Assembly (NCBI GenBank): GCA_000004985.1
Contig: GG738873.1
Length of the DNA: 64,000 nt
Direction: 5' to 3' (one strand)
DNA from: Naegleria gruberi
Lineage: Eukaryota
Of the stretch, positions 5,978 through 56,342 are shown piece by piece. How positions within the stretch are numbered: position 1 is the stretch's first letter; each line of letters begins with the position of its first letter. The notes beneath the pieces were generated by a model. That model saw nothing but the letters and a program-made list of their open reading frames with translations, was not told where the DNA came from and searched no databases. The translations under genes and the position numbers were made by a program.

Positions 5978-8900
5978 TCATCTTCTCCTTCTTCTTAATT
6001 GGTCAAAAACTGAATTATTCAAAATATCCTGTGCTTGAGGTCTGATGGCACTGTCCTTTTCCAACATTGATAAAGTCAAGTCAATGATATATTGAGAATA
6101 TTGACCAGGCTCTTCCATTTTCTTCTTTAATAATTGTGAAACTTCCTTTTGATCCTTAGTGACATAGAGTTGACTAATTGATGTAAAAGTGTCCTTAGTT
6201 ATTATTTGATAAATAGTTACACCTAAACTGTAAATATCAGTGTTATAGAAATACTTGCCACCATATCCCAATTCTTTAAAAAACAATTTAAAATTAATGT
6301 CAGTTATCTCTTAATTACTTACCAGGTGACATGAATAGAGGAGTGCCAGCATATGAATTATTGGTAGAACCTTGATTTGCTTTGGCCAATCCAAAATCTG
6401 CAATAACTATTTCAATATTATCCTTATCTAAACTCTTTACAAAAATATTGGATGGTTTGATATCTCTGTGGATGAGTTTCATTGAGCTGTGAATATAATC
6501 AAGAGCGCTACACATTTGGAAAATGATTTGCAATAATATCTGTTCTGAACATGTAGAATCATCTTTGGTCAATTGAACCAAATCTCCCAATTCATAAAAG
6601 TCCATATCAATACACAACAATTGATCCTTACTAATAAAAAAGTCATTAACCTTAAGAATATTTGAATGGTGAATATTCATCAATTGAGTTCCTTCCTTCA
6701 TAAAATTATTCAACTCCTCTGTTGATGTGTATTTGATTACTTTGATTGCCTTCATGGTGTTTGTTTTGGAATCAAAAGCTTTGAATACTGAACCAAAGGC
6801 ACCTTGACCAATTTTAACCAAGTCCATATATCTTGAGAGTGGATTGAAGGATTGACTGCTACCTCCAGTAGATGAGATACTAGTGAGAGGAGTCAAAAAC
6901 ATACTGGCATCTGATGGGAAATCACTTGATTGACCAAGCTCAATATTTTGAATAGTTTGAAGTTCGTACGCTTTTTGAGATTTTAATTTCCAAACACAAA
7001 CTGAAAATACCACTACAATAATAGCTATGATAATTATTGCAATCAACACAACTGGAATTGTAACACCAAGGATGATACCAAGAGTTTGATCATCAATGGA
7101 TCTGGGAATTGAGTTAGAAACATTAGGTGCATAATAATAAGCAAGTTCTTGAACTGTGAATAGAGATAAGTGATTAGTGACACATTCCAAATTGAAATAG
7201 AGTTTACCTTCCTCTCTTTTGACAATTGTCATTGATTGAGTCAAAATACCAGAATTAGACCAAGTTTGTTTCACTGAATCATAGTAACTGCATGAAATGT
7301 TAGTATCTGTCTTGTCATTTGTAAACAAATTATTGAACTTGATTGAAATTGGTTTTGTAAGGCCACTGACAGGTACTTGAGCTCCACTTTCTTGACTATA
7401 AATGGATAATTCAAAAATTGGTCTATTTTCAAGAATGTTATTTAGTGTGGTATCCTTCTTGATCAATGAAGAGCTGTAGAATAATTTGACATTGTTTGGA
7501 ATACTTAATTGAGAAGTAAAATCGGATGGGAAACTGGCCGAAACTTGAATAGTATCTTCAATCATTATAGAAATTTCCTTTCCATTCAATTGAGTTTCCA
7601 AATCCAGACTTTCAAGTGAATAAGTCCCCAATGTATTATTCGTAGTCAACCCACTCAACAATAAATATTTAACTTGATATCCTACAATGAGTGATTGTTT
7701 CTCTAATTTTGAGGAAAATCTCTTAATCAAAATAGATTGTAAATTTGATAGCTCAGTATAGTGAGTTTCGTCCAATAGAGTTAATCTTAATGCAGAAGTA
7801 TAGTACTGCTTGGATTTGTCCATTCCTGAATAAGTCCAATCAAGCCACTTTACAAGATTATCAGTCATGGAATTGATGGAATTTTCATCTTGTAAAGTGA
7901 GATCGAGAATTGAGAAAATATCACAAATTATTGGAAGGACCATTTGAATAAGTTTTTCATCGACTTTGGATGTCAAACTCTGTACATTATTTAGGAGTGA
8001 TAGCATTTCATTCAAATTGGAGTTTAGAGTTTGAATTTGAGAATTGGAAGTTTCGGTAAACAATCTTCCAGTGAAATTTTCAAAATTAGTTTCGTTTAAA
8101 AGGAGAATTGACATGAGGGAATTAATGGAATTGACAGTTTCAATCTTCAATGGTTCTACTCTTTTTAAAGTATAAAATTGATCATTTACATAATTCAGTT
8201 TAGACGAAATTGAGTTTGTAATCGAATTTGGAGCTTTCATTGTAATTGTTCTTGTAAGCGTTCCAATAGATCCATATCTATTGACAAGTTTTACAACGAG
8301 ATTTAAATCTGAACCATCTCTACTGAGTGGAAGTCTGGTTACAAGGTTTTTCTTTAGAGTGTTGGAAAGAATTGATATTCTTTCTCCTTGTTGAGAATGA
8401 ATTTCCATTACATAATTCGAAACTGGTTCTGAAGGTAAATTGAGACAAGAAATGGTCATGAAGCTTTCGAATGCATAATTAACAGCTTCGTTTCTTAAAT
8501 TGTAATAGGAACATGAAAATCTTGGAGTATTGTCAATTCTTGTGGAAAGTGAAATATTCGATTGACCAAACTCATTCCAAGTTGACAACTCAAATGAATA
8601 AAATTCACCATCAATCAAATATTCATTTCCAATATTCAACTCTGATGTAACAGAATTACCACCAACATTTCTAATGGTTTCTCTATTTCTCAAGAATTCG
8701 TCCACATTCTCACCCACTGCAACATTCAATCTTCCTTCCACCAATTTCCAACTTGTTGTAACACTAGAAGTAGAAGAAATAAGAGTCTTTAAAACCAATG
8801 GACGATGACTAGCATGAATAGGAGGTCTATAAGGGCTACTAAGTTTTGGAGCTTGAATGGATGAATCAGTCAACTTGATAAAACCAATGAAATTGTAAGG

Positions 8901-11900
8901 AATTGAAACGAACGAGTTGGTATAGTAAACTATTAAATTGATAGAGTACATTCCTTCAGATAAATTCAAAGATGCTGGATTAAAAGTCAACGATTGTTGA
9001 GTATTTTGACTTGTACATAAATTTGAAGAAATGGTCAACTTGGTCAAAGGATCAACTTGGAAACATGAATAAGAATAAGTGAAATAATCCTTAATAGTAA
9101 ATGTCGTAATGAATGGATCATCATTTTCAAATGTTATAGTAATGGCTCCATTTCTAATAGAATGTGTTCTATTGACTTGTGTCAAGACATGATCCAATCT
9201 GTCAAATGTTTTGTAATTGAAATAGTATGGAAGTGATAAACTTTCATATGTTTTCAAGTGTAATCCAACTACTTGTGCATTAGAATTGTATTCACTATCA
9301 ATTAGTTCATTATTATAAATGTTGACTAATCTAAACATTTGCTTTTGAAAAACTTCAGCATTTAAAAGACTGAAAAATCCAGAAAAAGTATACGAAATGG
9401 AACTATTCAATGAATTCAAGCTAGATTCTACAATACAATTATGTCCAACACATGAAAATGGAGCATCCTTAACATTATCTCCAAACCAAGTGAAAGAAGG
9501 TGGTAAACTCTTGAGATTTGGTTGAACTCTTGTAATATCTCTTGAACTAGTTGCATAATTTAACAAGTTGACTGAATCAAGTTTCAAAGTGAGTACTTTC
9601 AGATAAGAGGCATCCAATGGAATGGTATTTAACAAGGAAATTGGAATGTTGATAATTGACTTGTTGTTATATTGTAAAAGATGGGATGAAATAGTTTGAG
9701 GACAATTTTCACATGTCCACACACGTTGAACTCGTTTGAAGGAATGGTAATAGTCATCTGTGTTGGATCTAACAATCAAATCTTGACTTGGTGGGAGAGT
9801 GGTGAGTAAATCATTGATTGAGGAAACAAAACTTCTTCCTTTCATAATGTTTAAAGATTCAGTTGAGTTGACCATCAATGAAATGTTATATCTGCTATCA
9901 GAATCAAGTAAAATTATTGATCCATGTACAATTGAGTGATCATATCCGAGTAAAATCTTGAAATAAGAACTAGTCCACAAGCATTGAACAAAATCCTTCT
10001 CACCAAATCTTGACTGTTCGTCCAAATTCATAATTTGATCACATGAGAAAATACTACCTGCTTGTTTTGAAATATTGAGAATGTTACTGAATGGAGAATA
10101 GATTAAAGCATTAGGAACATCTAGAAGGACATGATGATGTTGACATTTGTTTCCAGCAAATCCTTCATTACATAAACAATTATCAATTCCAATACAGCTA
10201 CCTCTCGATGAGCAAACATTTGAATTATTGGAATAGAGACCAAAACAATTGCTGTGTTGACATTCCTCGCCTCCATATCCCGTGTTACAATTACATTGAT
10301 TTGGAGCTTGACATTTACCTCTTCCATAACATACAGAGCTAGAATTGGATAGAATTCCAAAACATGAAGTCAAGGAACAATCCTTCTCTTTCCAGCCCTG
10401 ATTACATGTGCAGTTATCATAGGAGCTACATTGACCATTACCTGAACAAATGTATGAAGTATTAGACGAAAGTACATTGTAACATTTTAAAAATTCACAT
10501 CTACTACCACCCCATTCTTTTGGACATTTACAATCACCAGGTCCATCACATGTTCCGTTGTTTTGACAAACACTAACTCCAACAGATTGACCAGCACAAG
10601 TAAAATCATCACAAAAAGCACCAAAATAACCTATTGAACATGTACAGTTATTGTAAAAGTTACAGACACCGTGTCCAGAACATACACCTGGAGATGTTTT
10701 CACAATTCCATTACAATTATATAATTCGCACTCATTGCCATAGTATCCAAATGGACAGGAACAATTATTGTAAGCTGTACATTGACCTCTTCCAGAACAA
10801 ACTGAAGAGTTGGAAACTGCCATACCAAAACATGTGAAATTCATGCATGCACTTCCAAAATATCCCTCCACACATGAACAATTGTTTGGTTTAATGCAAC
10901 TTCCATGAGAGGAACAAACAGATGGGTTGGTATTTCTAATTCCAAAACAATCAAACTGTTCACAATTAGTGCCATTGTAAAGAGCTGTGCAGTTACAATA
11001 GTTTGGAGATTGACATGTTCCTCCACCTGAGCAAACATTTGTGGCCTGGTAATTGACTCCATAACAATCAAATTCTTCACAATTAGCTCCATAATAATTT
11101 GTATTGTAACATGTACATTCCAAGCTTGTACTGTTAAAGTATTTCTGGCTACTTCCACAAGATTGGAAAGACATGAGTCGAATAACATTATTTCCAGTAT
11201 CTGCAATGTAGATTTCACCAGAATTTCCTAATGCTAATCCTTCAGGATCACTGAATTGAGTATTGAGAGCAGCCATGAAATCTGGAGAGCTTCCTTTAGA
11301 TCCTGTTCCTGCAAGAGTTGAAATCTTACCATTAGTAACCTTTCTAATTCTCTGATTTTCCTTATCAATGAAAATCAAGTCACCTGTCGAGGTCACTTCT
11401 ATGGCGCCAGGCTTGTTTAACGAAGCTGACAAGGCACTTCCTCCATCTCCTGAAAAACCAGCAATACCATTACCTGCCACTGTTGAAATAATTCCACTTT
11501 GTAAATCAATTTTACGAATTACATGATTGATATTCTCAGTAAAATACAGAGCTCCAGAATATAATGCTATTCCATCAGGACCATTTAATTTGGCATTGAC
11601 TGCCAAATTTCCATCTCCTGAATATCCTGCACTCCCTGTTCCAGCAATAATATAAACATCCAAACCATCAATTTTAAGAATCATATTGTGTAAATAATCT
11701 GTCAAGTAAATAATGACTTTGTTGGGGTCATTAATCATGACGAAATGATTACTAGTGAAACTAGCTAGGTTATAGGTTGTTGGTGATGAAATTGGACCTC
11801 CTGTACAAGAACCTGCAATAAGAGAAACTGTGTATCCAGAATCCACTCTCTTCACAGCACAATTATTCTCCAGAAAGAATATTTTAGAATCGACCTGTCG

Positions 11901-13298
11901 TTGTAAGCCATAGTTTGGAGTGGTAATAACAGGACCAGTGGTACTAGTTGCACTGGATGAAGTTGTTTGACCAATGATACCTGCAAGATTGGTAATTATT
12001 TTGGAGGAGAGATCAATACTTCTCACTGCATAACTATTGGAATCAGCAAGTGTCAACACTCCATTCAAATAATAAACACTTGTTGGTTTTGAAAGGAAGG
12101 CAGAAAGAGCAGGTATTCCACTACCAAATTGTTGACTACTTGTACCTGCTATAGTTGAAATGGTGGATGCTTGTCCATCAGACACTGTTGCCTTTCTTAT
12201 TCTATTATTTCCCAGGTCAGCAATGTAAATATTTCCATCGCCATACACAACATTTGATGGATTTGAAATGCAATTTGTGGCAGCCGACCCATCATTAAAA
12301 CCTGGTTGTAAATTAACACCCACAAACTCAGTAATGAGATAGGGACTTTGAATAATGTTTTTTCTCCTGATTGTGTGACCAAGTGAATTGCAAATATACA
12401 TGTATCCACTTGCAATAGTCAACCCTTGAGGTCTTATTAAATCGCTATTACCAACGACTTCAGATACAGTATTGGAAGACAGTTTACAAACTCGATCATT
12501 ATTAGTATCAGAAAAATAGAGATTGTAATCATCACTTGAGAAGAATACTCCATACGGTGAAGCCAATTTCAAATTTAATGGTGGTTGAGTCATGTCACTT
12601 GATCCACTCATACCAGCAATACCAACTACTCTAATCACCATTGGAGTGCTATCCAATTGAGTTATTTTACGAATTATATGATTACCAGTATCTGCAAAAT
12701 AAATCTCTGTATTTGCTGGATTAATTGTAATACCACTTGGACTACTCAACTTGGTTAGAAGAGCAATTCCATCCCCAGAAACATCTGCTACTCCAGTTCC
12801 AGCAATTGTTGTAATTGTACCATTCACATAAATTTTCCTAATACGGTGATTTCCAGTATCAGTAAATACAATGTCACCATTATTCATCAAAATTATGCCT
12901 CTAGGTTGATTAATTGCAGCATTGACAGCTGGACCACCATCTCCTGAGAAACTATTTGCCACGCCATTGCCAGCAATTGTTGTGATCTTTCCAGTTGAGT
13001 CAATCTTTCTAATTCTATTGTTTGATGTATCGCAAATGTACATTGGATAAATTGTGTTAGGTGTAATTGCAATACCAGATGGTCCTTTTAATGAAGAGGC
13101 AGTTGCTGGTAGATTATCTCCAACAACATTGCCGCCACCTGCCAAAGTTGTCATGTTAAAAATTGGCACCGAACAATGACTCTCAACACATGTCAAAACA
13201 AACACAACTGCTAGCAATAGAATGAAGGGAACTACAACCAGATTGTGTACGGACACATGCCTGTCCATGCGTGTGTGAGAGCGATGTGAAAGAGGCAT
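5978..13298 (-). CDS. Receptor-like Ser/Thr protein kinase: signal/anchor, ~14 NHL repeats, ~12 tenascin-type EGF-like Cys repeats, large extracellular region, one TM helix, C-terminal kinase domain. Two exons with a 49-nt intron at ~6273-6321
   Basis: 6984-nt uninterrupted ORF. NHL repeats follow the pattern (SGDGG.A..A.LN.P.GI…D.GNHRIRKI). EGF-like repeats follow CxCxxGYxGxxC. TM segment GIILGVTIPVVLIAIIIIAIIVVVF. Kinase motifs GQGAFGSV…HRDIKPSN…DFGLA…GTPLFMSPE. The E of APE and subdomains X-XI (ELGYGGKYFYNTDIYSLG…) continue in the 5978-6272 exon after a GTAAGT…AAAG intron. Confidence 0.8.
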
Positions 13299-32967: not shown

Positions 32968-33189
32968 TCTCTCTTCCTCTCTCCTTAATAAACAACCTCC
33001 ACCACATTGTATTGTAATAAAATCTCTAGACTATTAATCATGGTTTTGTATGATCCAATGCTCTTCTTTGTGGTTCAGAGCATAAGGCAAACATCTTCAA
33101 AGGGTTTTAGATGATGTCTCAAACAAAGCTGGCAATGCACATCACTATTTTAGATAATGCGCCCTCATCTCCTCTTTTTAAAAAAAAAA

Positions 33190-35451
33190 ATGAGCACATG
33201 GATCGATGAAAGAAAGTCAAGCTCTAGCAGCTGCAGTTCGACACATAGTGATAGAAAAGACAGTATATCTGTTTGTATACCTCAATTACTAACGGATTCA
33301 ACAATAGTACCACATATTTTGGTTATTGACGATGATCCAGTGACTCGTAAAACATTAGCTAAACTTTTATCAAATCTTGGATACAAAAGTAGAACAGCAA
33401 GTGGAGGTAAAGAGGCTTTAAATCTTCTTGTACAAGATAACGAAGACCCTTTCCATTGCTTGTTAGTAGATGTTCTTATGCCGGAGATGGACGGTTTTGG
33501 ATTTCTTAGAGTTTTAAAACAAGCCATCAACAGAGAAATTCCTTGTATTATGATGAGTGGAAGTGAAGACCCTGAAACAGTCTCAAAATCATTTCAATGC
33601 GGAGCCGAAGATTTCCTTCCAAAACCTATCAAGGAAGAAATTCTTAGGGCAAGAATTCAAACCGTATTAGCCTATCGTGATCGAAGAATTAGAGAAAAAT
33701 TCTATATTAACAAGATTCATGAAGAACAACGATTAAGAAATCAATTACACATACAAGAAAAACAAAATGAAGAAGAGTTATTAGCCTTTAAAAAGAAGGT
33801 TGGTGAATCCATCGAAACACCTATTCAATTAATTGTTGGTGCTGTTGGTGATATCATTAGTGGAAATTTGGACAAAGAACAAACCAAACTTGCTTTAATA
33901 TCAGTTATGAAATCATTAAGTTCATCTAATTTGTATAGACCAGCCTTTTTGGATTCTTTAAAAACTGCAGAAATGGATGAAGCCACCCGAAAATGGCTTG
34001 TGAATCAATATACCAAAGATGCCGAAGAGTATAAAACAAAGATCAAGGCTGATAGAAGTGATAGCATTGATTCAACTGCCTCAAATGATTCTACTCCTGG
34101 TGTTGCTTTAGCTTCACCACTTCCACCAAAAACAGAAGTTTTACCTTATGATCTTGAAACATACAAACCTGATGTTGATGTAAAATCACTCAATTATGAT
34201 GCATTTAAGTATAATGATTATGAAGAACTCAAGAAGCACGCAATGTATTACTTTAAATCCCTCAATATGTTTGAAAGATTCAATATTAATCCGATCAAAC
34301 TTTGGAATTTCCTAGGAGAATTGAAAAAGAAGTATAGAAATAACCATTATCACAATTTTAGACATTGTTGTGATGTCACTCAATATCTCTTCATGCTCCT
34401 CAATCATGAAAAGATTGATAGTTTCTTCTCTGATATGGAAAAATTAGTACTCCTTCTCTCAGGTCTTACTCACGACATTGACCATCCAGGAGTTAACAAT
34501 AACTTCTTAATCATGACTGAAGATGAACTTGCATACAGATACAATGATAAGAGTGTATTGGAAAATTATCACGCTTTCAATGCTTTTAAAATTATGCAAA
34601 AGGATGAGTTCAATGTGTTGGATGGTTTAACAGAGGAACAATACAGAGAACTCAGGAAGATAATGGTTCAAACAATTCTTGCAACAGATATGACAAACCA
34701 CTTTTCAATCATTTCTATTTTTGAATCAAGAATTGGTACAGGTAGACTTTCTAATGAAAATGCTGAAGACAAATTGTTATTAATGAGAGTATTGATGAAA
34801 TGTTCCGATATCAGTAACCTTAGTAGACCTTTTGCAATTGCTAAGAAGTGGGCCAATGCCTGTATTAATGAGTTCTTTTCACAGGGTGATTTGGAAAGAC
34901 AAAAGGGATTACCAATCAGCCCTCTAATGGATAGAAATACTTTAGATTTTCCAAAATCTCAAATGGACTTTGGTAAATTCGTAGTTTCTCCTTTGTTTAA
35001 ATTACTTGCAACATCATTCAAAGAATTGAGCTATATTTATGAATCTGTCTGTAATAATATTGAAACATGGAAACAAATATTTGATGAAGAACAACTGAAA
35101 AAGGCCAAACAGTCTGAAATTGCAAAGGAAGAACCAAAAGAAACGAAAGAAAAGATTGAATCTCCTCAAACCGAAAAGCCTCAACAGCCCTCACAAACAG
35201 CTGAAACTCAAAGTACTACGTCCAACTCACCACCTACCACTTCTGTAAACAACACTTCCTCTACTTCATCATCTAACACTAGCAGTCCAACTGAATCCAC
35301 AACAAGTCAAACAACACTTGCAAGCCGTTCATCCAATGCTTCCACAAGCTCAACTCCTTCCAAAGGATCTAACCTCAACGTTTTGCTCCCAATCTTTATT
35401 CTAATTCTTTCTCTAATTTTGTATTTCCTTACTCAATCAACCTCTCAGTAA
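33190..35451 (+). CDS. regA: RegA-type protein: N-terminal response-regulator receiver domain fused to a class I (HD) 3',5'-cyclic-nucleotide phosphodiesterase, plus a Ser/Thr-rich tail ending in a hydrophobic helix
   Basis: Receiver motifs ILVIDDDPVTRKTLAKLL…LLVDVLMPEMDGFGFL…KP (Asp pocket and conserved Lys). PDE catalytic motifs YHNFRHCCDVTQ, HDIDHPGVNNNFL, ILATDMTNHF. Tail …STSSTPSKGSNLNVLLPIFILILSLILYFLTQSTSQ*. There is an alternative upstream ATG at 33157. Confidence 0.75.
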   Translation: MSTWIDERKSSSSSCSSTHSDRKDSISVCIPQLLTDSTIVPHILVIDDDPVTRKTLAKLLSNLGYKSRTASGGKEALNLLVQDNEDPFHCLLVDVLMPEMDGFGFLRVLKQAINREIPCIMMSGSEDPETVSKSFQCGAEDFLPKPIKEEILRARIQTVLAYRDRRIREKFYINKIHEEQRLRNQLHIQEKQNEEELLAFKKKVGESIETPIQLIVGAVGDIISGNLDKEQTKLALISVMKSLSSSNLYRPAFLDSLKTAEMDEATRKWLVNQYTKDAEEYKTKIKADRSDSIDSTASNDSTPGVALASPLPPKTEVLPYDLETYKPDVDVKSLNYDAFKYNDYEELKKHAMYYFKSLNMFERFNINPIKLWNFLGELKKKYRNNHYHNFRHCCDVTQYLFMLLNHEKIDSFFSDMEKLVLLLSGLTHDIDHPGVNNNFLIMTEDELAYRYNDKSVLENYHAFNAFKIMQKDEFNVLDGLTEEQYRELRKIMVQTILATDMTNHFSIISIFESRIGTGRLSNENAEDKLLLMRVLMKCSDISNLSRPFAIAKKWANACINEFFSQGDLERQKGLPISPLMDRNTLDFPKSQMDFGKFVVSPLFKLLATSFKELSYIYESVCNNIETWKQIFDEEQLKKAKQSEIAKEEPKETKEKIESPQTEKPQQPSQTAETQSTTSNSPPTTSVNNTSSTSSSNTSSPTESTTSQTTLASRSSNASTSSTPSKGSNLNVLLPIFILILSLILYFLTQSTSQ

Positions 35452-36675: not shown

Positions 36676-37569
36676 CTAAGGAAAGTAAATTTCCCGAACC
36701 TTTACACATTCCTCATCATGGCTGGCATCTTGTAAAATTACTGGACGTTTCTTGTTGAGCATGAGAACGCAAGATGCACCAGCAAATTGAGTATCCTTTT
36801 CAATGCCAGTTCTATTGCAAGCAGCAAAATATGTGATTGGTTGACTTTTCATTATTGGGGCCATTCTCTCTACCCAATAGGATTGTGTAGAAAGGCAATC
36901 ACTTGGATCATCTCTATTTGCCAGCCAATTGGCAGCAAATAGAATTAGTTCAGATTCTTTATCTTTGTGGAAATTAGCAAACTCTTTAGCATAATAATCT
37001 GTTGAAAAGTCAGTTCCATTATTAATATCCATACAAATTCCTGCCCCCACTCTAATATAATTGTTACAATTTTCCTCATCATCAACTGGATCATCCTCCA
37101 ATATTTTCTTATCATTAATTCTTAAGATAAATGATTTAAATTCCTCTCCTTCTTGTGCCCATTTCATATCCTGTTCATACAAGAAGTGTTTTCTATAATT
37201 TACAAAAGATCCATCTGCCGAAACAATATAAATTGAATTAAATAATTTAAATGGTATTGCTGATCCTTGATTTTGTTCCTTCTCTGGATATCCACAAACT
37301 ACAGCACAATCATACATTTCCGATAAATTCTTGCAAAATTCATAACAGCTTCCCTTTCCTTGTTCCTCACAATACGGAAAAACATCATCATAATTATCAA
37401 ACATGTACCCACTCAGTGCCATCTCTGGAAACATTAAAATATCAAAACTCTTCTTTTCAAAGCCTTCCAATAATTTCCGAATTTTATTTTGATTTTGCTG
37501 TACCTGTTTAAATTGTACATTGAATTGACAAAAGGCTACACGAACCGTCCGAGAAGCATTTTTTATCAT
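36676..37569 (-). CDS. Carbon-nitrogen hydrolase (nitrilase superfamily), Nta1/N-terminal-amidase-like
   Basis: VAFCQF…DILMFPEMALSGY (catalytic Glu region). GICMDIN contains the catalytic Cys. Confidence 0.65.
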   Translation of the reverse strand: MIKNASRTVRVAFCQFNVQFKQVQQNQNKIRKLLEGFEKKSFDILMFPEMALSGYMFDNYDDVFPYCEEQGKGSCYEFCKNLSEMYDCAVVCGYPEKEQNQGSAIPFKLFNSIYIVSADGSFVNYRKHFLYEQDMKWAQEGEEFKSFILRINDKKILEDDPVDDEENCNNYIRVGAGICMDINNGTDFSTDYYAKEFANFHKDKESELILFAANWLANRDDPSDCLSTQSYWVERMAPIMKSQPITYFAACNRTGIEKDTQFAGASCVLMLNKKRPVILQDASHDEECVKVREIYFP

Positions 37570-51817: not shown

Positions 51818-52106
51818 ACTTGTTTTTTACTTGGAAATTGATTAATATTGTATTCTATTGTATGCAAAGTTATCAGATCAATTCATAAGATCAAATAAGA
51901 TTCCAATAACACAGACGATATAGCAAGTGTTTCTCAGAAAGTAACGAAATGAAGAAACTTGATTGTTAAAAGGAATGAGTGAAGTTGCTGATTTCAATTT
52001 AGACGATTCGTTCTCTAGAAATGACTCTTCGAATATAATGAGACAGTGAACAAATCACTTTTCAAAAGAAACTTAACAGAAAAGAAATGGCTCAACACAT
52101 CTGGCA

Positions 52107-52201
52107 NNNNNNNNNNNNNNNNNNNNNNNNNNNNNNNNNNNNNNNNNNNNNNNNNNNNNNNNNNNNNNNNNNNNNNNNNNNNNNNNNNNNNNNNNNNNNN
52201 N
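52107..52201. other. Assembly gap (run of N); a single ambiguous base also at ~52276
   Basis: ~95 consecutive n characters. Indicates a draft scaffold join. Confidence 0.95.
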
Positions 52202-52329
52202 TTATTTGACAGCTGTCATGTGGAAAGATGTTGCTAATGAATACAAGTTAAAATCAACAGGAGATTTAAATACANCTTCTCAAACAACAACATGATCTAA
52301 ATATTGCCTACATTCCTACTAATTCGAAA

Positions 52330-54219
52330 ATGTCAGAATTATGGACAAGTGTCAGTTCAGAATTTTATAAAGCAAAGATGGTGAATTTTTATGTGTTTGT
52401 TCGAGGTTATGGGCAAAGATTTCACATTCTTGAAGATTTTGATATCATCATCACGTCCAGAAACTTGTTTTTGGAAAAGTTTAGATACTACCAGAAGGGT
52501 AGTGGAAAGAGAACTGAGAAGGGTCATTTATTCGAAACTTCTGACTTTGAATTTATAAATGTTCACCCATTTTCCGTTTACCAGGTGGATGAGGCTGCAA
52601 CTGGCTTGAATTTGAGTGTTATAGTTGCTAAACCATCATGTGAATCATCAACTCTTCTTTCGTTTGATTACGAACCTTCACTTTTCAACTCATGGCAAAT
52701 AATGAATTTGACAGAAGGGAAAATGATTTGTGATTACGACATGGAGTGCTTGAAAAGATATAACAAGATCGAGTTTAAATTGATATCTATGGTACGTTGG
52801 TGATTTATTTCTAACAATCAAAAGGTGAATCAACAAATTATTCGAAATGAAATTTCATCAGTCTACGGATTGACCAGTAATTCCTCAATTTCCCAATTAG
52901 AATCTCTTTACCTTCCACCATCATGCCACAATTGTCAAAATGAATATTGTGCCGATCTCATCTTTAACGATTTCGAATATTGGTTAATTCCACAAACTTT
53001 AATTGTAATCATTCATTTTCTTTTCCTTTTTTGTACTGGAGCATTGAAACAGCCATCAGTCAAGAGAAGATTATTCACGCCCTATTTACCAATCACTATT
53101 TTATATATCGAGTTGGCTATTTCTGATTTGTTTTGGCCAATTTGCAATCAATTGTTGACAAGTATTGGAATTATTGTTAATTTTTGCATTCTAGTTCATT
53201 TGTTTACCTATTTAAGGTTATATTATTTGAGGAATTTGTATGGAGTATTTTCATTATCAAAGAATATCAATTCTAAACTGTCAGGATTAGGTGGTATAAT
53301 TCCTGGAATGTTAGTTACATTAATTTTACCATTTTTCTTAAGTTTTTTGGTTTCTGTTCCATATATTGCAATCTATTTCATGGTTAATTTGGCTCTCAAT
53401 TTAGTATTCAACATTATTCTTGGCATTTCACTTGGTGTTGCCTGCATCATTGGATTTATTGTAATCTTAATTGACTTGGTTCTCAATAGGAAGAAGTGGA
53501 AAGAGAAGGGTTTGAGATATATGCTTTTCTTTGACGATCCATTCCTCATTAGAATTGACATGACCTTGTTAACAATTAATTTGATTTTTATCATTTTGAT
53601 TGCATCGGTAGGAGCTGTCTATCGACATGCTTCATACTTTTTCAGAGTGATGGTTTTTATGATATTTTGTTTGGTGAGTGGTGGAAGTTGTGTGATTAAA
53701 TTATTGGTTGAAAAGATGAGAGGAAATTCGAGGGATCACCAGGGAGAGGAGGATGTGATTGACACCTATCTGAAACATGATGATTTTAAGATGCTGTTTA
53801 GGGAATATTGTGTGAAGGAGTTGTCGTTGGAGAATTTTAATTTTTATATCATGTTAATTGATTTGAAAGCAAAGGCAAATAGGAGGTTGACCACTGAGAT
53901 GATGGATACTATTCAGAAAGAGTATTTGTCATCTTCAGCTATGTTCGAATTGAATATTTCAAGTCAGTGTAGACAATCTTTTTTCTTATTAAGGAAAAAT
54001 CTCGAAAAGCAAATTGCCAATTTAGAATTATCATCTAATAAGGATATGGCCTCTGATTCTGGTGAATCTCCATGTTTGAGAATTCATGATTTAATTTTAT
54101 TGTTCGAATATGAAGTGTTAACAAATCTCAAAGATACATTCTCAAGAATGGAGAAAACAAGTGAATTCAGAACATGGCTTCATACTCTCAAAATTCAAAA
54201 ACAAAACAACATTTGTTAA
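52330..54219 (+). CDS. Seven-transmembrane protein with a C-terminal RGS (regulator of G-protein signalling) domain, AtRGS1-like architecture; 2 exons joined by a 33-nt intron
   Basis: Exon 1 ends ATG|GTACGT (~52793). Acceptor …caatcaaaag|GTG AAT at ~52827 keeps the frame. Seven hydrophobic helices lie between ~LIPQTLIVIIHFLFLF and ~FFRVMVFMIFCLVSGG. The RGS-like box is …FKMLFREYCVKELSLENFNFYIMLIDLK…. The N-terminal 157 aa lack a signal peptide and the gene abuts the N-gap, so the 5' end may be incomplete. Confidence 0.55.
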
Positions 54220-54390
54220 CAAATATCTGTTCTCTTTTTCAAATCTGAAACTCAAATAGGATTTAATTACTAAATGAGAAAGTAAACTATAAACATCCTC
54301 AATTAAGGAAGTTTGAATTAAATATCTAATAGATACAGCCTTAATAATGGAGAACAATTCTCAGAACATGATTCAAAAACAGTGTTAACT

Positions 54391-55830
54391 TTATTGTTGC
54401 TTTTGCTTCTTACACAGTTGCATTATAGCTTGACTTAGATCTGAGATCATATTGTTTTGAGCTTCTACTAGTTGGTAAAGTTTGGAAATATCTGAACTAT
54501 TCTTCTCAATTAGAAGAGTCAAACTCCTTATTCTACTATCCTCGCTTATCTTTCTCTTTCTATATGGTAAATCACTAGTAATACAATCAATATGTGGAAG
54601 GGAAGAATCTTTCATTGGAGAAGTGGCACTTTCTTGTTGAGGAACTGGAGGACTTGACAATGTTAAATCAGCAAAGCTGGGCAATCTTTCTTTCACAATA
54701 CTCGATGCAACATTAGCGAGGGAGGAGAGAGGATCAGAGGAACTTTGGTTAGTGCTGGAGATTGGAGATTGAATGATTGCTTTTTGCTTTAGTGAAGGTG
54801 GTATGGTAATAACTTCATCTTCAATGACGTTGGAAAGTGTGCTTATTTCTTGCTCACCTCCTTCATCAGATGGTGAATCATTCGATGAGGTGGTAGAATG
54901 AGATTGATGTACAATTTCAGATTGCTTGGATGCAGATGATGGCTCTTTTCTTCTCTTTGCCATGTCCAACATCATCTGACCTCTACTTCTTGATCTTACC
55001 CAGAAAGAATCAGAAACACATATTAGTTTGTTATTCGAATCATAGATATCAATGTATGCCACCCTACTACTTGTATTACCCTTCATGTTATTGATTTTAG
55101 ACACTACTTGAAACTCGACGACATGTTTTCTTGTTTTTGGATCAAACGTGAAGAATGCTTCAGTCACAACTTTTCCCCCAGCAGAATCTTTCAACTTGAG
55201 AAAGCTCTTACAATTCTCAAAGTCATTACCTTCAATCACAAGATAATCCTTGATGCTACAATTATGAGTTGTTGAGTGTGGATGTTTAGTTTTTGGATCA
55301 TTCAATCTCCATCCTTCTCTACACTCAAAAACAACAGCATGCTGTTGTTGAGCACCATTCACAAAGTGAAGACAAGGCTTAGAAATGGGAAATGATGAAA
55401 GGGAATCATTGGTAGTCTTTGGGAGAAGAGTTTGTGATTGGTAAGGTGATTGGTTAGTATTTACATTATCAAGCAAATTCATTTCAGTGATGGAGGTAGT
55501 GGTGATGGTCTGAGGAGATGATAAATGATTGGATGGATATTGATCGTCGGAATCAGTTAATGTACAAGATCCTGAAGAAATCACTTGAAAACTTCTATTC
55601 GATTCTGATGGTAACAATGTTGAATTGAGAAAGCCTTTGTTATTTAACAAGGATTCTTGCTTAATATTTGATTGATTGTTGGAACAACTTGTATCACTAC
55701 TAATAGAAGTATTATTACTATTACTACTACTACTATTCAACAGCAGCCGAGGCTTCGTTGCAGGTGGTGTTGTTGTGTTGGTGGTGGTGGTGTAACTTGA
55801 ACGAGGACTGTTTTCAGCAGAGGTGACCAT
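54391..55830 (-). CDS. Ser/Thr/Asn-rich hypothetical protein with a central globular domain and a C-terminal coiled-coil/zipper-like segment
   Basis: 479-aa ORF. Central block CLHFVNGAQQQHAVVFECREGWRLNDPK…FFTFDPKTRKHVVEFQVVSKINN…VAYIDIYDSNNKLICVSDSFWVRSRS looks like a β-sandwich DNA-binding-type fold, but I cannot assign a family. Confidence 0.4.
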   Translation of the reverse strand: MVTSAENSPRSSYTTTTNTTTPPATKPRLLLNSSSSNSNNTSISSDTSCSNNQSNIKQESLLNNKGFLNSTLLPSESNRSFQVISSGSCTLTDSDDQYPSNHLSSPQTITTTSITEMNLLDNVNTNQSPYQSQTLLPKTTNDSLSSFPISKPCLHFVNGAQQQHAVVFECREGWRLNDPKTKHPHSTTHNCSIKDYLVIEGNDFENCKSFLKLKDSAGGKVVTEAFFTFDPKTRKHVVEFQVVSKINNMKGNTSSRVAYIDIYDSNNKLICVSDSFWVRSRSRGQMMLDMAKRRKEPSSASKQSEIVHQSHSTTSSNDSPSDEGGEQEISTLSNVIEDEVITIPPSLKQKAIIQSPISSTNQSSSDPLSSLANVASSIVKERLPSFADLTLSSPPVPQQESATSPMKDSSLPHIDCITSDLPYRKRKISEDSRIRSLTLLIEKNSSDISKLYQLVEAQNNMISDLSQAIMQLCKKQKQQ

Positions 55831-56342
55831 TCAAGCCTTTTCTTGAAACCTTTGGCTTTTGCGCTTTTTTTTTTAACTGAAATTACTTCAAAAACAATGC
55901 TCGGATTCATCAATTCCGTTCTAGAGCAAAGAATTTTCCATCCATCATCACTCTAGCAGCATGAATTGATTGAAAATTGTACTTGCAATGAAATAAATAG
56001 AAATCGGTTTGTTTTTGATGGAGGTTGGTAATGAAAATGTTGTATGGAGCAGAATGAGGTTGAACCTCTTGATGATGACGACAGCACACGTGTGTTTTTT
56101 ATGGTAAATCAATCTGTTATGGATATTTGAAAGTTTAGGAAGAATCGATATCGTTTCGAAACTGATTGAATCACAATAAATACCAGTTAAATGCATTTTA
56201 ACATGGGAAGCCAATAAGAGACATCATCATCATTGAAAATAATGAAAATAACACCTTTCAATTTTCATCATCGGAGCAAAAATAATAAAAATTAAATAAT
56301 ATTCGTGATGAGCTAAAAATCAAGTTGTTTGATGAAAAAAAA

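What the first reader, a model, noticed from the sequence alone, without database searches (positions are those of the whole stretch)
52330..54219. 7TM–RGS fusion protein (plant AtRGS1-like architecture) next to an assembly gap
The protein has seven predicted helices followed by an RGS-box-like segment (FKMLFREYCVKELSLENFNFY…). This is the receptor-GAP architecture known from plant RGS1, which would couple a membrane sensor directly to Gα deactivation. Exon 1 (157 aa, no signal peptide) is joined by a 33-nt GTACGT…AAAG intron. The N-gap 130 nt upstream means the 5' exon(s) may be missing.
Basis: partly seen in the sequence, partly recalled or inferred. Interest (0 to 1): 0.55.

Follow-up and report, generated by a model that had tools for sequence, protein, structure and literature searches.

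The report
Naegleria seven-helix receptor fused to RGS
This is a real gene for a membrane receptor carrying a built-in G-protein "off switch" (RGS domain), but it is an already deposited Naegleria gruberi gene from a receptor family already described in Naegleria; the new points are that its public model lacks its true start because of an assembly gap, and that its membrane part shows no detectable sequence relationship to the plant protein.

Summary

The window is Naegleria gruberi NEG-M, not a dictyostelid. Three neighbouring ORFs match deposited N. gruberi proteins exactly. The 618-aa model is 100% identical to EFC43476.1 / XP_002676220.1 / D2VIA2 (NAEGRDRAFT_68613, "predicted protein").

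7TM-RGS proteins are a published Naegleria class: 28 in N. fowleri, some with measured GAP activity on Gα (Bosch et al. 2022). A profile search finds 796 relatives. The named ones examined are all Naegleria or Willaertia.

Refinements:
- ATG 52330 is internal. Homology continues upstream through a 1-nt frame error at the N at 52275 and into the 95-N gap, so the gap lies inside the gene. It probably hides about 35-45 codons, including a signal peptide.
- The protein has an extracellular domain of roughly 290 aa that AtRGS1 lacks.
- Its 7TM domain shows no detectable homology to the plant RGS1 7TM domain (hhalign probability 0.3%), whereas the RGS domains do match (96%).

Verdict: a correct reading of an ordinary, already catalogued gene. 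Interest is low.

The parts
52087..52106 (+). Probable true start codon and first 6 codons (MAQHIW), running into the gap
   Evidence: It is the only ATG-initiated frame open into the gap from the left. Paralogues start M-x-x-H followed by a hydrophobic signal sequence. This is an inference; the frame across the gap cannot be known.
52107..52201 (.). Assembly gap (95 N) inside the coding sequence; it probably hides about 35-45 codons including the signal peptide
   Evidence: N-run located. Paralogues P0002 and P0003 have 50 and 43 residues before the motif that reappears right after the gap.
52203..52274 (+). Unannotated coding segment YLTAVMWKDVANEYKLKSTGDLNT (extracellular domain)
   Evidence: tblastn aligns P0002 residues 51-72 (YMSAIIWKDV...) to window 52203-52268 in a different frame from the annotated CDS. 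The same motif is conserved in P0003-P0005.
52275..52275 (.). Single ambiguous base (N) that causes an apparent 1-nt frameshift
   Evidence: Deleting it joins 52203-52274 to 52276 onward in one frame. The joined stretch is exactly as long as in P0002: 47 residues from Y(M/L)(S/T)A to (K/E)LW.
52276..52329 (+). Unannotated coding segment LLKQQHDLNIAYIPTNSK, upstream of and in frame with the annotated ATG
   Evidence: The main tblastn alignment to P0002 (585 bits) begins at window 52276, 18 codons before ATG 52330.
52330..52791 (+). Annotated exon 1 (154 codons): the main part of the extracellular domain
   Evidence: It is 41% identical to P0002. It has no Pfam or PDB sequence match. It carries NLS and NLT sequons, read directly from the sequence.
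52792..52824 (+). 33-nt spliceosomal intron: GTACGT donor, CTAAC branch-like motif 6 nt before the AG, in-frame TGA
   Evidence: Removing it gives a gapless junction against P0003. The product is identical to deposited model EFC43476.1. Comparable introns of 35-49 nt occur in the window.
52825..52971 (+). End of the extracellular domain, with a conserved Cys-x2-Cys-x4-Cys stalk (PSCHNCQNEYC) just before TM1
   Evidence: C188, C191 and C196 are conserved in 48, 41 and 33 of 72 family members.
52972..53709 (+). Seven-transmembrane domain (618-aa numbering): TM1 204-226, TM2 238-258, TM3 261-283, TM4 307-330, TM5 347-371, TM6 396-419, TM7 425-449. Family signatures: R236, R285-x2-YLRNLY, FFDDPxxxRxD, GG440-441.
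53755..54198 (+). RGS domain (about aa 465-612), with an insert of about 25 aa (about aa 547-572) between its two halves
54217..54219 (+). Stop codon (TAA); the C-terminus IQKQNNIC is conserved with the paralogues

Best explanation
The locus is Naegleria gruberi gene NAEGRDRAFT_68613. It encodes a receptor-type GTPase-activating protein of the Naegleria/Willaertia 7TM-RGS family.

**Full protein (about 700 aa; the deposited 618-aa model is cut short at the N-terminus).** It consists of a signal peptide hidden in the assembly gap, a family-specific glycosylated extracellular domain of about 290 aa ending in a Cys-rich stalk, a GPCR-like bundle of seven helices, and a cytoplasmic RGS domain.

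**Proposed mechanism.** The RGS domain is held at the membrane, binds GTP-loaded Gα subunits and speeds their GTP hydrolysis, keeping G-protein signalling off. An unknown extracellular cue, read by the extracellular domain and helix bundle, changes the access, activity or location of the RGS domain. The receptor would therefore signal by regulating deactivation of Gα rather than its activation.

**Shown here:** gene structure, topology, RGS fold and conservation of the Gα-contact residues.

**Inferred:** GAP activity (by analogy with the tested N. fowleri 7TM RGS2-4 domains), ligand control, and the hidden signal peptide.
For: - **Organism and gene identity.** Three window ORFs match N. gruberi proteins EFC43463.1, EFC43552.1 and EFC43556.1 exactly. 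The spliced product is 100% identical to EFC43476.1.
- **Extracellular N-terminus.** Paralogues carry signal peptides: 40 of 67 representatives have a hydrophobic N-terminus. There are also conserved cysteines and sequons.
- **5' extension.**
- **Family.** 796 representatives at E<=1e-3. Named members are N. gruberi, N. fowleri, N. lovaniensis and Willaertia magna.
- **Published biochemistry.** RGS domains of N. fowleri 7TM RGS2-4 act as GAPs on, and bind, selected Nf Gα subunits (PMC9283941).
Against: - No experiment exists on this protein. No held paper names it in its main text.
- The AlphaFold2 models are of low confidence in the membrane and extracellular parts (pLDDT about 50-60), so the GPCR-like fold rests on weak models. 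Foldseek E-values are only 0.05-1.
- The 7TM and extracellular domains match no Pfam or PDB sequence, so the ligand and coupling logic are unknown.
- The N-terminus cannot be read.
- The closest environmental copy carries a frameshift and a 12-nt deletion, and the gene evolves about ten times faster than its neighbour. This hints at weak constraint.
Confidence: 0.82

Rival explanations
1. It is a decaying or non-functional paralogue (pseudogene) within a large, fast-turning-over gene family. On this reading the frame break at 52275 is real rather than a base-calling ambiguity.
For: - The frame changes at the N at 52275.
- The 98.5%-identical environmental copy has a 2-nt frameshift and a 12-nt deletion in the same gene.
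- Exon 2 carries 20 substitutions (10 synonymous, 10 non-synonymous), against 2 in the neighbouring gene.
Against: - About 660 codons are open in the window apart from one ambiguous base and a canonical intron.
- All family-invariant residues in the 7TM and RGS domains are intact.
- The non-synonymous changes are conservative, and the rough dN/dS of about 0.3 is below 1 (my estimate from the counts).
- An N is a low-quality call, not evidence of an extra base.
Confidence: 0.1
2. It is a bifunctional receptor. The seven-helix domain itself couples to and activates a Gα subunit (GEF activity, as in a GPCR), and the tethered RGS domain acts as a built-in timer that ends the signal, rather than as a constitutive brake released by ligand.
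For: - The cytoplasmic face is very strongly conserved: R236, R285-YLRNLY at the end of TM3 (where GPCRs carry the DRY motif), and FFDDPxxxRxD before TM6. That is the surface GPCRs use to bind G proteins.
- Naegleria has both slow-exchange and self-activating Gα subunits, and both engage 7TM RGS proteins (PMC9283941).
Against: There is no sequence homology to any GPCR family, and no GEF activity has been reported for any 7TM-RGS protein in the papers read. The conserved inner face could equally dock the protein's own RGS domain or a kinase.
Confidence: 0.12
3. The RGS domain is a Gα-binding adaptor without GAP activity, like the RGS-homology domains of axin, sorting nexins or RhoGEFs. The protein would then be an effector or scaffold rather than a deactivator.
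For: - The domain is divergent. The Pfam match covers only profile positions 6-75 of 117, there is an insert of about 25 aa, and several paralogues fall below the Pfam threshold.
Against: The residues that contact the Gα switch regions and define GAP-competent R4-type RGS domains are all present and nearly invariant. These include the Asn equivalent to RGS4 N128. Related N. fowleri domains have measured GAP activity.
Confidence: 0.08

Closest known systems
Naegleria fowleri 7TM RGS proteins (28 genes; Nf 7TM RGS1-4 studied by Bosch, Jeck & Siderovski, J Biol Chem 2022, PMC9283941)
   Same: Same genus and same architecture: extracellular N-terminus, seven helices, C-terminal RGS. At least one N. 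fowleri protein (P0009, FDP41_008785) belongs to the same sequence family over the extracellular, 7TM and RGS regions (E 1.4e-143). The canonical RGS/Gα contact residues are retained.
   Different: The studied N. fowleri proteins have EGF-like, lectin and GPS-motif ectodomains. This protein's ectodomain matches no Pfam family, and no GPS motif was found. I could not map Nf 7TM RGS1-4 (AmoebaDB ids) onto my hits. This N. gruberi protein has not been tested biochemically.
Arabidopsis AtRGS1 and plant RGS1 orthologues
   Same: Seven helices followed by a cytoplasmic RGS domain. The RGS domains are homologous (hhalign probability 96%, E 1.7e-9). The presumed logic is the same: a receptor that controls Gα deactivation.
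   Different: The 7TM domains show no detectable homology (hhalign probability 0.3%, E 0.17, 15 columns). In plant RGS1 the first hydrophobic helix begins at about residue 15 (sequence printed), so there is no ectodomain, whereas this protein has about 290 extracellular residues. This protein ends about 6 residues after the last RGS helix (aa about 612 of 618), whereas the plant RGS1 sequences run on for about 45 residues past theirs (consensus).
Adhesion and class B GPCRs
   Same: A large ectodomain, a Cys-containing stalk before TM1, and a seven-helix bundle. Several of the better Foldseek hits are adhesion or secretin-type receptors.
R4-type RGS domains (RGS4, RGS3, RGS10, RGS17)
   Different: About 20% identity, an insert of about 25 aa between the two halves of the domain, and covalent attachment to a membrane receptor.

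Membership tests
RGS domain (Pfam PF00615) | Scores at or above Pfam's curated gathering threshold | tested here: met
   28.1 bits against a 23.9 cut-off, E 2.8e-6, residues 470-539. The family profile hits RGS10 in the PDB at E 2.9e-8.
RGS domain (Pfam PF00615) | Complete helical RGS-box fold, including the C-terminal half | tested here: met
RGS domain (Pfam PF00615) | Gα switch-contact residues of GAP-competent domains (RGS4 E83, S85, E87, N88, N128, D163, R167) | tested here: met
   They correspond to E486, S488, E490, N491, N531, D591 and R595. Each is conserved in 67-72 of 72 family members.
RGS domain (Pfam PF00615) | Accelerates GTP hydrolysis on a Gα subunit | not testable with these tools
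   Shown only for RGS domains of N. fowleri 7TM RGS2-4 (PMC9283941).
7TM-RGS receptor-GAP architecture (Naegleria family) | Seven transmembrane helices N-terminal to the RGS domain | tested here: met
7TM-RGS receptor-GAP architecture (Naegleria family) | RGS domain on the cytoplasmic side | tested here: met
   Positive-inside rule: mean K+R is 3.8/5.3/4.2 in loops 1, 3 and 5 against 0.4/0.8/0.2 in loops 2, 4 and 6. Paralogues have signal peptides. This is a prediction only.
7TM-RGS receptor-GAP architecture (Naegleria family) | Full-length sequence homology to other Naegleria 7TM-RGS proteins | tested here: met
   P0002 and P0003 are 46-48% identical over the full length. N. fowleri, N. lovaniensis and Willaertia members are found.
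Plant RGS1 (AtRGS1) family | 7TM domain homologous to that of plant RGS1 | tested here: not met
   hhalign of the 72-sequence Naegleria 7TM profile against a 24-sequence plant RGS1 7TM profile gives probability 0.3%, E 0.17 over 15 columns. The RGS profiles run as a positive control give 96%, E 1.7e-9.
Plant RGS1 (AtRGS1) family | Short extracellular N-terminus directly preceding TM1 | tested here: not met
   About 245 visible residues plus those hidden in the gap precede TM1. In plant RGS1 the first hydrophobic helix begins at about residue 15 (sequence printed).
Adhesion / class B GPCRs | 7tm_2 transmembrane domain and GPS/GAIN autoproteolysis motif | tested here: not met
   No such Pfam hit at E<=0.1 in this protein or in nine relatives. 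None appeared at E<=10 for the 7TM segments.
   Window ORFs are exact matches to N. gruberi proteins on a 461,873-nt scaffold. All named homologues are Heterolobosea.

The most novel reading that the evidence does not exclude
The Naegleria/Willaertia family (ectodomain, 7TM, RGS) may be an independent invention of the receptor-GAP design, not a descendant of the lineage that gave plant RGS1. On this reading an orphan seven-helix domain with its own invariant cytoplasmic motifs (R236, R285-YLRNLY, FFDDPxxxRxD, GG) and a new ligand-binding ectodomain of about 290 aa were joined to an RGS domain. The fusion would then have expanded to hundreds of sequence clusters in heterolobosean amoebae.
Probability: 0.3. 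Interest if true: 0.4.

Novelty: already known. Interest (0 to 1): 0.18.

Why it matters
For biology at large it matters little. The gene model is already public, and the 7TM-RGS class in Naegleria is published with biochemistry.

Three modest practical points come out of the analysis.

- **Truncated public model.** The model for NAEGRDRAFT_68613 (D2VIA2) lacks about 90 N-terminal residues, including the likely signal peptide. Topology or localisation predictions made from it will therefore be wrong.
- **Undercounted family.** Close paralogues fall below the Pfam RGS threshold. Domain-based censuses of receptor-GAPs in Naegleria therefore undercount this family.
- **Shared design, unrelated membrane part.** The 7TM part has no detectable relationship to AtRGS1 or to any catalogued GPCR family. 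"AtRGS1-like" should be read as a shared design, not shared ancestry. This bears on the debate over whether receptor-GAP signalling is ancestral in eukaryotes.

Tried and rejected
- **First protein search.** It returned no 100% N. gruberi hit, and I provisionally concluded that the gene was unannotated. That was wrong. The deposited protein was hidden inside a 90%-identity cluster whose representative is a metagenome fragment. I corrected this.
- I used the exon-2 translation and paralogue P0002 instead. Both models were of low confidence outside the RGS domain.
- **Closing the gap.** A metagenome scan with exon 1 found no relative. The only near-identical contig (L001) starts at 52824 and does not reach the gap.
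- **Paralogue loci.** DNA for P0002 and P0003, needed to test intron conservation, is not on record.
- **Identity of the 7TM and extracellular domains.** Pfam on 10 full proteins, 17 7TM segments and 13 ectodomains gave nothing, and neither did PDB profile searches. One weak Foldseek hit of the P0002 model to ATP-phosphoribosyltransferase (E 0.55, probability 0.30) is too weak to use. From memory that enzyme has a periplasmic-binding-protein-like fold.
- **Unavailable resources.** The afdb50 fold library was unavailable. Anantharaman et al. 2011 and Bradford et al. 2013 are not held.
- **Dictyostelid origin.** Rejected.
- **Gene-prediction artefact for the 33-nt intron.** Considered and judged unlikely.

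Full report
**1. What is in the sequence**

The region holds two adjacent open reading frames on the + strand, 52330-52803 and 52825-54219. Removing the 33-nt segment GTACGTTGGTGATTTATTTCTAACAATCAAAAG (52792-52824) joins them in frame into a 618-aa protein. That segment contains an in-frame TGA.

The window has one 95-N run (52107-52201) and one isolated N at 52275. Its G+C content is 33%.

**2. The RGS domain is real**

- Pfam RGS (PF00615) scores 28.1 bits against a curated cut-off of 23.9 (E 2.8e-6). It covers residues 470-539, which are profile positions 6-75 of 117.
- phmmer against PDB sequences finds only RGS proteins, with RGS17 best at E 7e-4.
- A profile of the C-terminal region of seven family members reaches RGS10 at E 2.9e-8.
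- The Pfam match is partial because an insert of about 25 aa splits the domain.
- The RGS4 residues that touch the Gα switch regions are E83, S85, E87, N88, N128, D163 and R167. They correspond to E486, S488, E490, N491, N531, D591 and R595. Each is conserved in 67-72 of 72 family members.

**3. Seven helices, with the RGS domain inside the cell**

- Single-sequence hydropathy gives six clear segments and one weaker one.
- The AF2 model has seven long helices plus a short cytoplasmic one.
- Hydropathy averaged over 72 aligned relatives gives exactly seven peaks.
- Averaged over the family, loops 1, 3 and 5 carry 3.8, 5.3 and 4.2 Lys+Arg, while loops 2, 4 and 6 carry 0.4, 0.8 and 0.2. This is the positive-inside pattern of an N-out, C-in protein.
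- The membrane part of the models has low confidence (pLDDT 50-60), so I treat the GPCR-like fold as supported but not proven.

**4. Whose gene it is**

The best homologues are Naegleria gruberi "predicted proteins" P0002 and P0003 (46-48% identity over the full length) and P0004 (31%).

Three intronless ORFs elsewhere in the window are exact matches to N. gruberi proteins EFC43463.1, EFC43552.1 and EFC43556.1, all on one 461,873-nt scaffold. The window is therefore N. gruberi NEG-M, a heterolobosean amoeboflagellate and not a dictyostelid.

The 618-aa product itself is deposited as EFC43476.1 / XP_002676220.1 / UniProt D2VIA2, locus NAEGRDRAFT_68613, "predicted protein". I missed this at first because the protein sits in a 90%-identity cluster represented by a metagenome fragment (P0001). 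No paper in the searchable library names the protein in its text.

**5. The public model is truncated at its 5' end**

- tblastn with paralogue P0002 shows that homology does not start at ATG 52330. It starts 18 codons earlier, at 52276 (LLKQQHDLNIAYIPTNSK aligned to VMKKQNSLKIVFISSETK).
- A second segment in another frame covers 52203-52268 (YLTAVMWKDVANEYKLKSTGDL aligned to YMSAIIWKDVSRSNNITSMEDV).
- Deleting the ambiguous base at 52275 puts both segments in one frame. The joined stretch is then exactly as long as in P0002.
- Paralogues have a further 43-50 residues before this point, beginning with a hydrophobic signal sequence. Forty of 67 family representatives that start with Met have such an N-terminus.
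- On the left of the gap, the only ATG-initiated frame running into the Ns is ATG 52087 (MAQHIW...).
- The simplest reading is one exon from about 52087 to 52791, with about 35-45 codons including the signal peptide lost in the gap. The full protein would be about 700 aa, like P0002 (712) and P0003 (697).
- The start codon and the signal peptide are inferences.

**6. The 33-nt intron**

- It has a GTACGT donor, a CTAAC branch-like motif 6 nt before the AG, and an in-frame stop, so read-through would truncate the protein.
- After its removal the junction ...KLISM|VNQQII... aligns without a gap to P0003 ...NLMSV|TNQQLF....
- Elsewhere in the window, GTAAGT...AG segments of 35, 45, 46 and 49 nt likewise join long ORFs. 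Very short introns therefore fit the local pattern.
- I could not test conservation of the intron position, because DNA for the paralogues was not on record.

**7. The family**

An exhaustive profile search of 1.84 billion representatives found 796 proteins at E<=1e-3, 349 at 1e-10 and 94 at 1e-30. Many match over the ectodomain, 7TM and RGS regions together.

Named members are N. gruberi, N. lovaniensis, N. fowleri (FDP41_008785) and Willaertia magna. The rest come from unnamed metagenome assemblies.

The cytoplasmic face of the bundle is the most conserved part outside the RGS box:
- R236 in 70/72 members
- R285 in 71/72
- the YLRNLY run after TM3
- FFDDPxxxRxD before TM6, with D392 and R397 in 72/72
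- GG440-441 in TM7

Neither the 7TM domain nor the ectodomain matches any Pfam family or any PDB sequence, even with profiles at E<=10.

**8. Comparison with what is known**

7TM-RGS proteins are described in plants and many protists, and also in chytrids, filastereans and ichthyosporeans (PMC3971589).

For Naegleria specifically, Bosch, Jeck and Siderovski (PMC9283941) report 28 such genes in N. fowleri. They also show that isolated RGS domains of three of them accelerate GTP hydrolysis on, and bind, selected Nf Gα subunits, including self-activating ones. The class and its likely mechanism are therefore known, and the present gene is an uncharacterised member.

I then compared profiles:
- The RGS parts are homologous (probability 96%, E 1.7e-9).
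- The 7TM parts are not detectably so (probability 0.3%, E 0.17, 15 columns).

Together with the ectodomain of about 290 aa that plant RGS1 lacks, the resemblance is one of design, not demonstrated family membership. Failure to detect homology between membrane domains this divergent does not prove independent origin.

**9. Mechanism**

The best-supported reading is a receptor-type GAP.
- The membrane-tethered RGS domain deactivates Gα-GTP.
- The ectodomain and helix bundle modulate this in response to an unknown cue.

The structure-level statements are shown here. GAP activity is inferred from conserved contact residues and from the N. fowleri experiments. Ligand control is inferred by analogy with AtRGS1.

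The rivals are a decaying paralogue, a bifunctional GEF-plus-GAP receptor, and a non-catalytic Gα-binding scaffold. They are listed with their tests.

**10. Verdict**

The finding is nevertheless an already deposited gene of an already described Naegleria receptor class, so its novelty and interest are low.

The useful residue:
- a corrected gene start
- evidence that Pfam-based counts miss close paralogues (P0002 at 19.6 bits, P0004 with no hit)
- the negative result on 7TM homology with plant RGS1

Noticed in passing
L001:1-3109 (metagenome contig ERZ929261, PRJEB11402), aligned to window 52824-55953: An environmental contig is 98.5% identical to the window. Inside the 7TM-RGS gene it has a 2-nt deletion (window 53078-53079, a frameshift at the loop-1/TM2 boundary) and a 12-nt deletion (53163-53174, four residues of TM3). 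Exon 2 carries 20 substitutions (10 synonymous, 10 non-synonymous), against only 2 in the 1437-nt neighbouring gene. This is either a decaying copy in a wild relative or a contig error.
   Followed up: partly
window 31837 (+), 47996 (-), 48474 (-), 59704 (-): GTAAGT...AG segments of 45, 49, 35 and 46 nt join long ORFs in frame. The 35-nt one has a TACTAAC branch motif. Very short introns seem usual in this genome region.
   Followed up: partly
P0002, P0004 (N. gruberi paralogues): Close full-length paralogues score below the Pfam RGS gathering threshold (P0002 at 19.6 bits against 23.9) or not at all (P0004). Domain-based censuses of 7TM-RGS proteins in Naegleria are therefore likely to undercount them.
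   Followed up: partly
P0101 (JGI metagenome protein, 817 aa): This family member has an N-terminal alpha/beta-hydrolase domain (PF00561, 26.0 bits against a 25.8 cut-off) ahead of the 7TM-RGS part. Its source names it 'pimeloyl-ACP methyl ester carboxylesterase'. It is an unusual enzyme-receptor-GAP combination.
   Followed up: no
window 6318-13298 (-): A 2327-aa ORF carries teneurin-like NHL and EGF repeats and a C-terminal protein kinase domain. It looks like a large receptor kinase.
   Followed up: no
window 33157-35448 (+): A 764-aa ORF combines a response-regulator receiver domain with a 3',5'-cyclic nucleotide phosphodiesterase domain.
   Followed up: no
window 36679-37569 (-): The 297-aa ORF product is found exactly only in Logan/ENA assemblies. 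The deposited N. gruberi model for this locus (EFC43555.1) is 248 aa, so the public model may differ at one end or contain a predicted intron.
   Followed up: no
plant RGS1 hits: About 15 of the listed plant RGS1 proteins carry a precomputed Pfam 7tm_3 (class C GPCR, PF00003) hit on their membrane domain. The Naegleria family shows no such hit.
   Followed up: no
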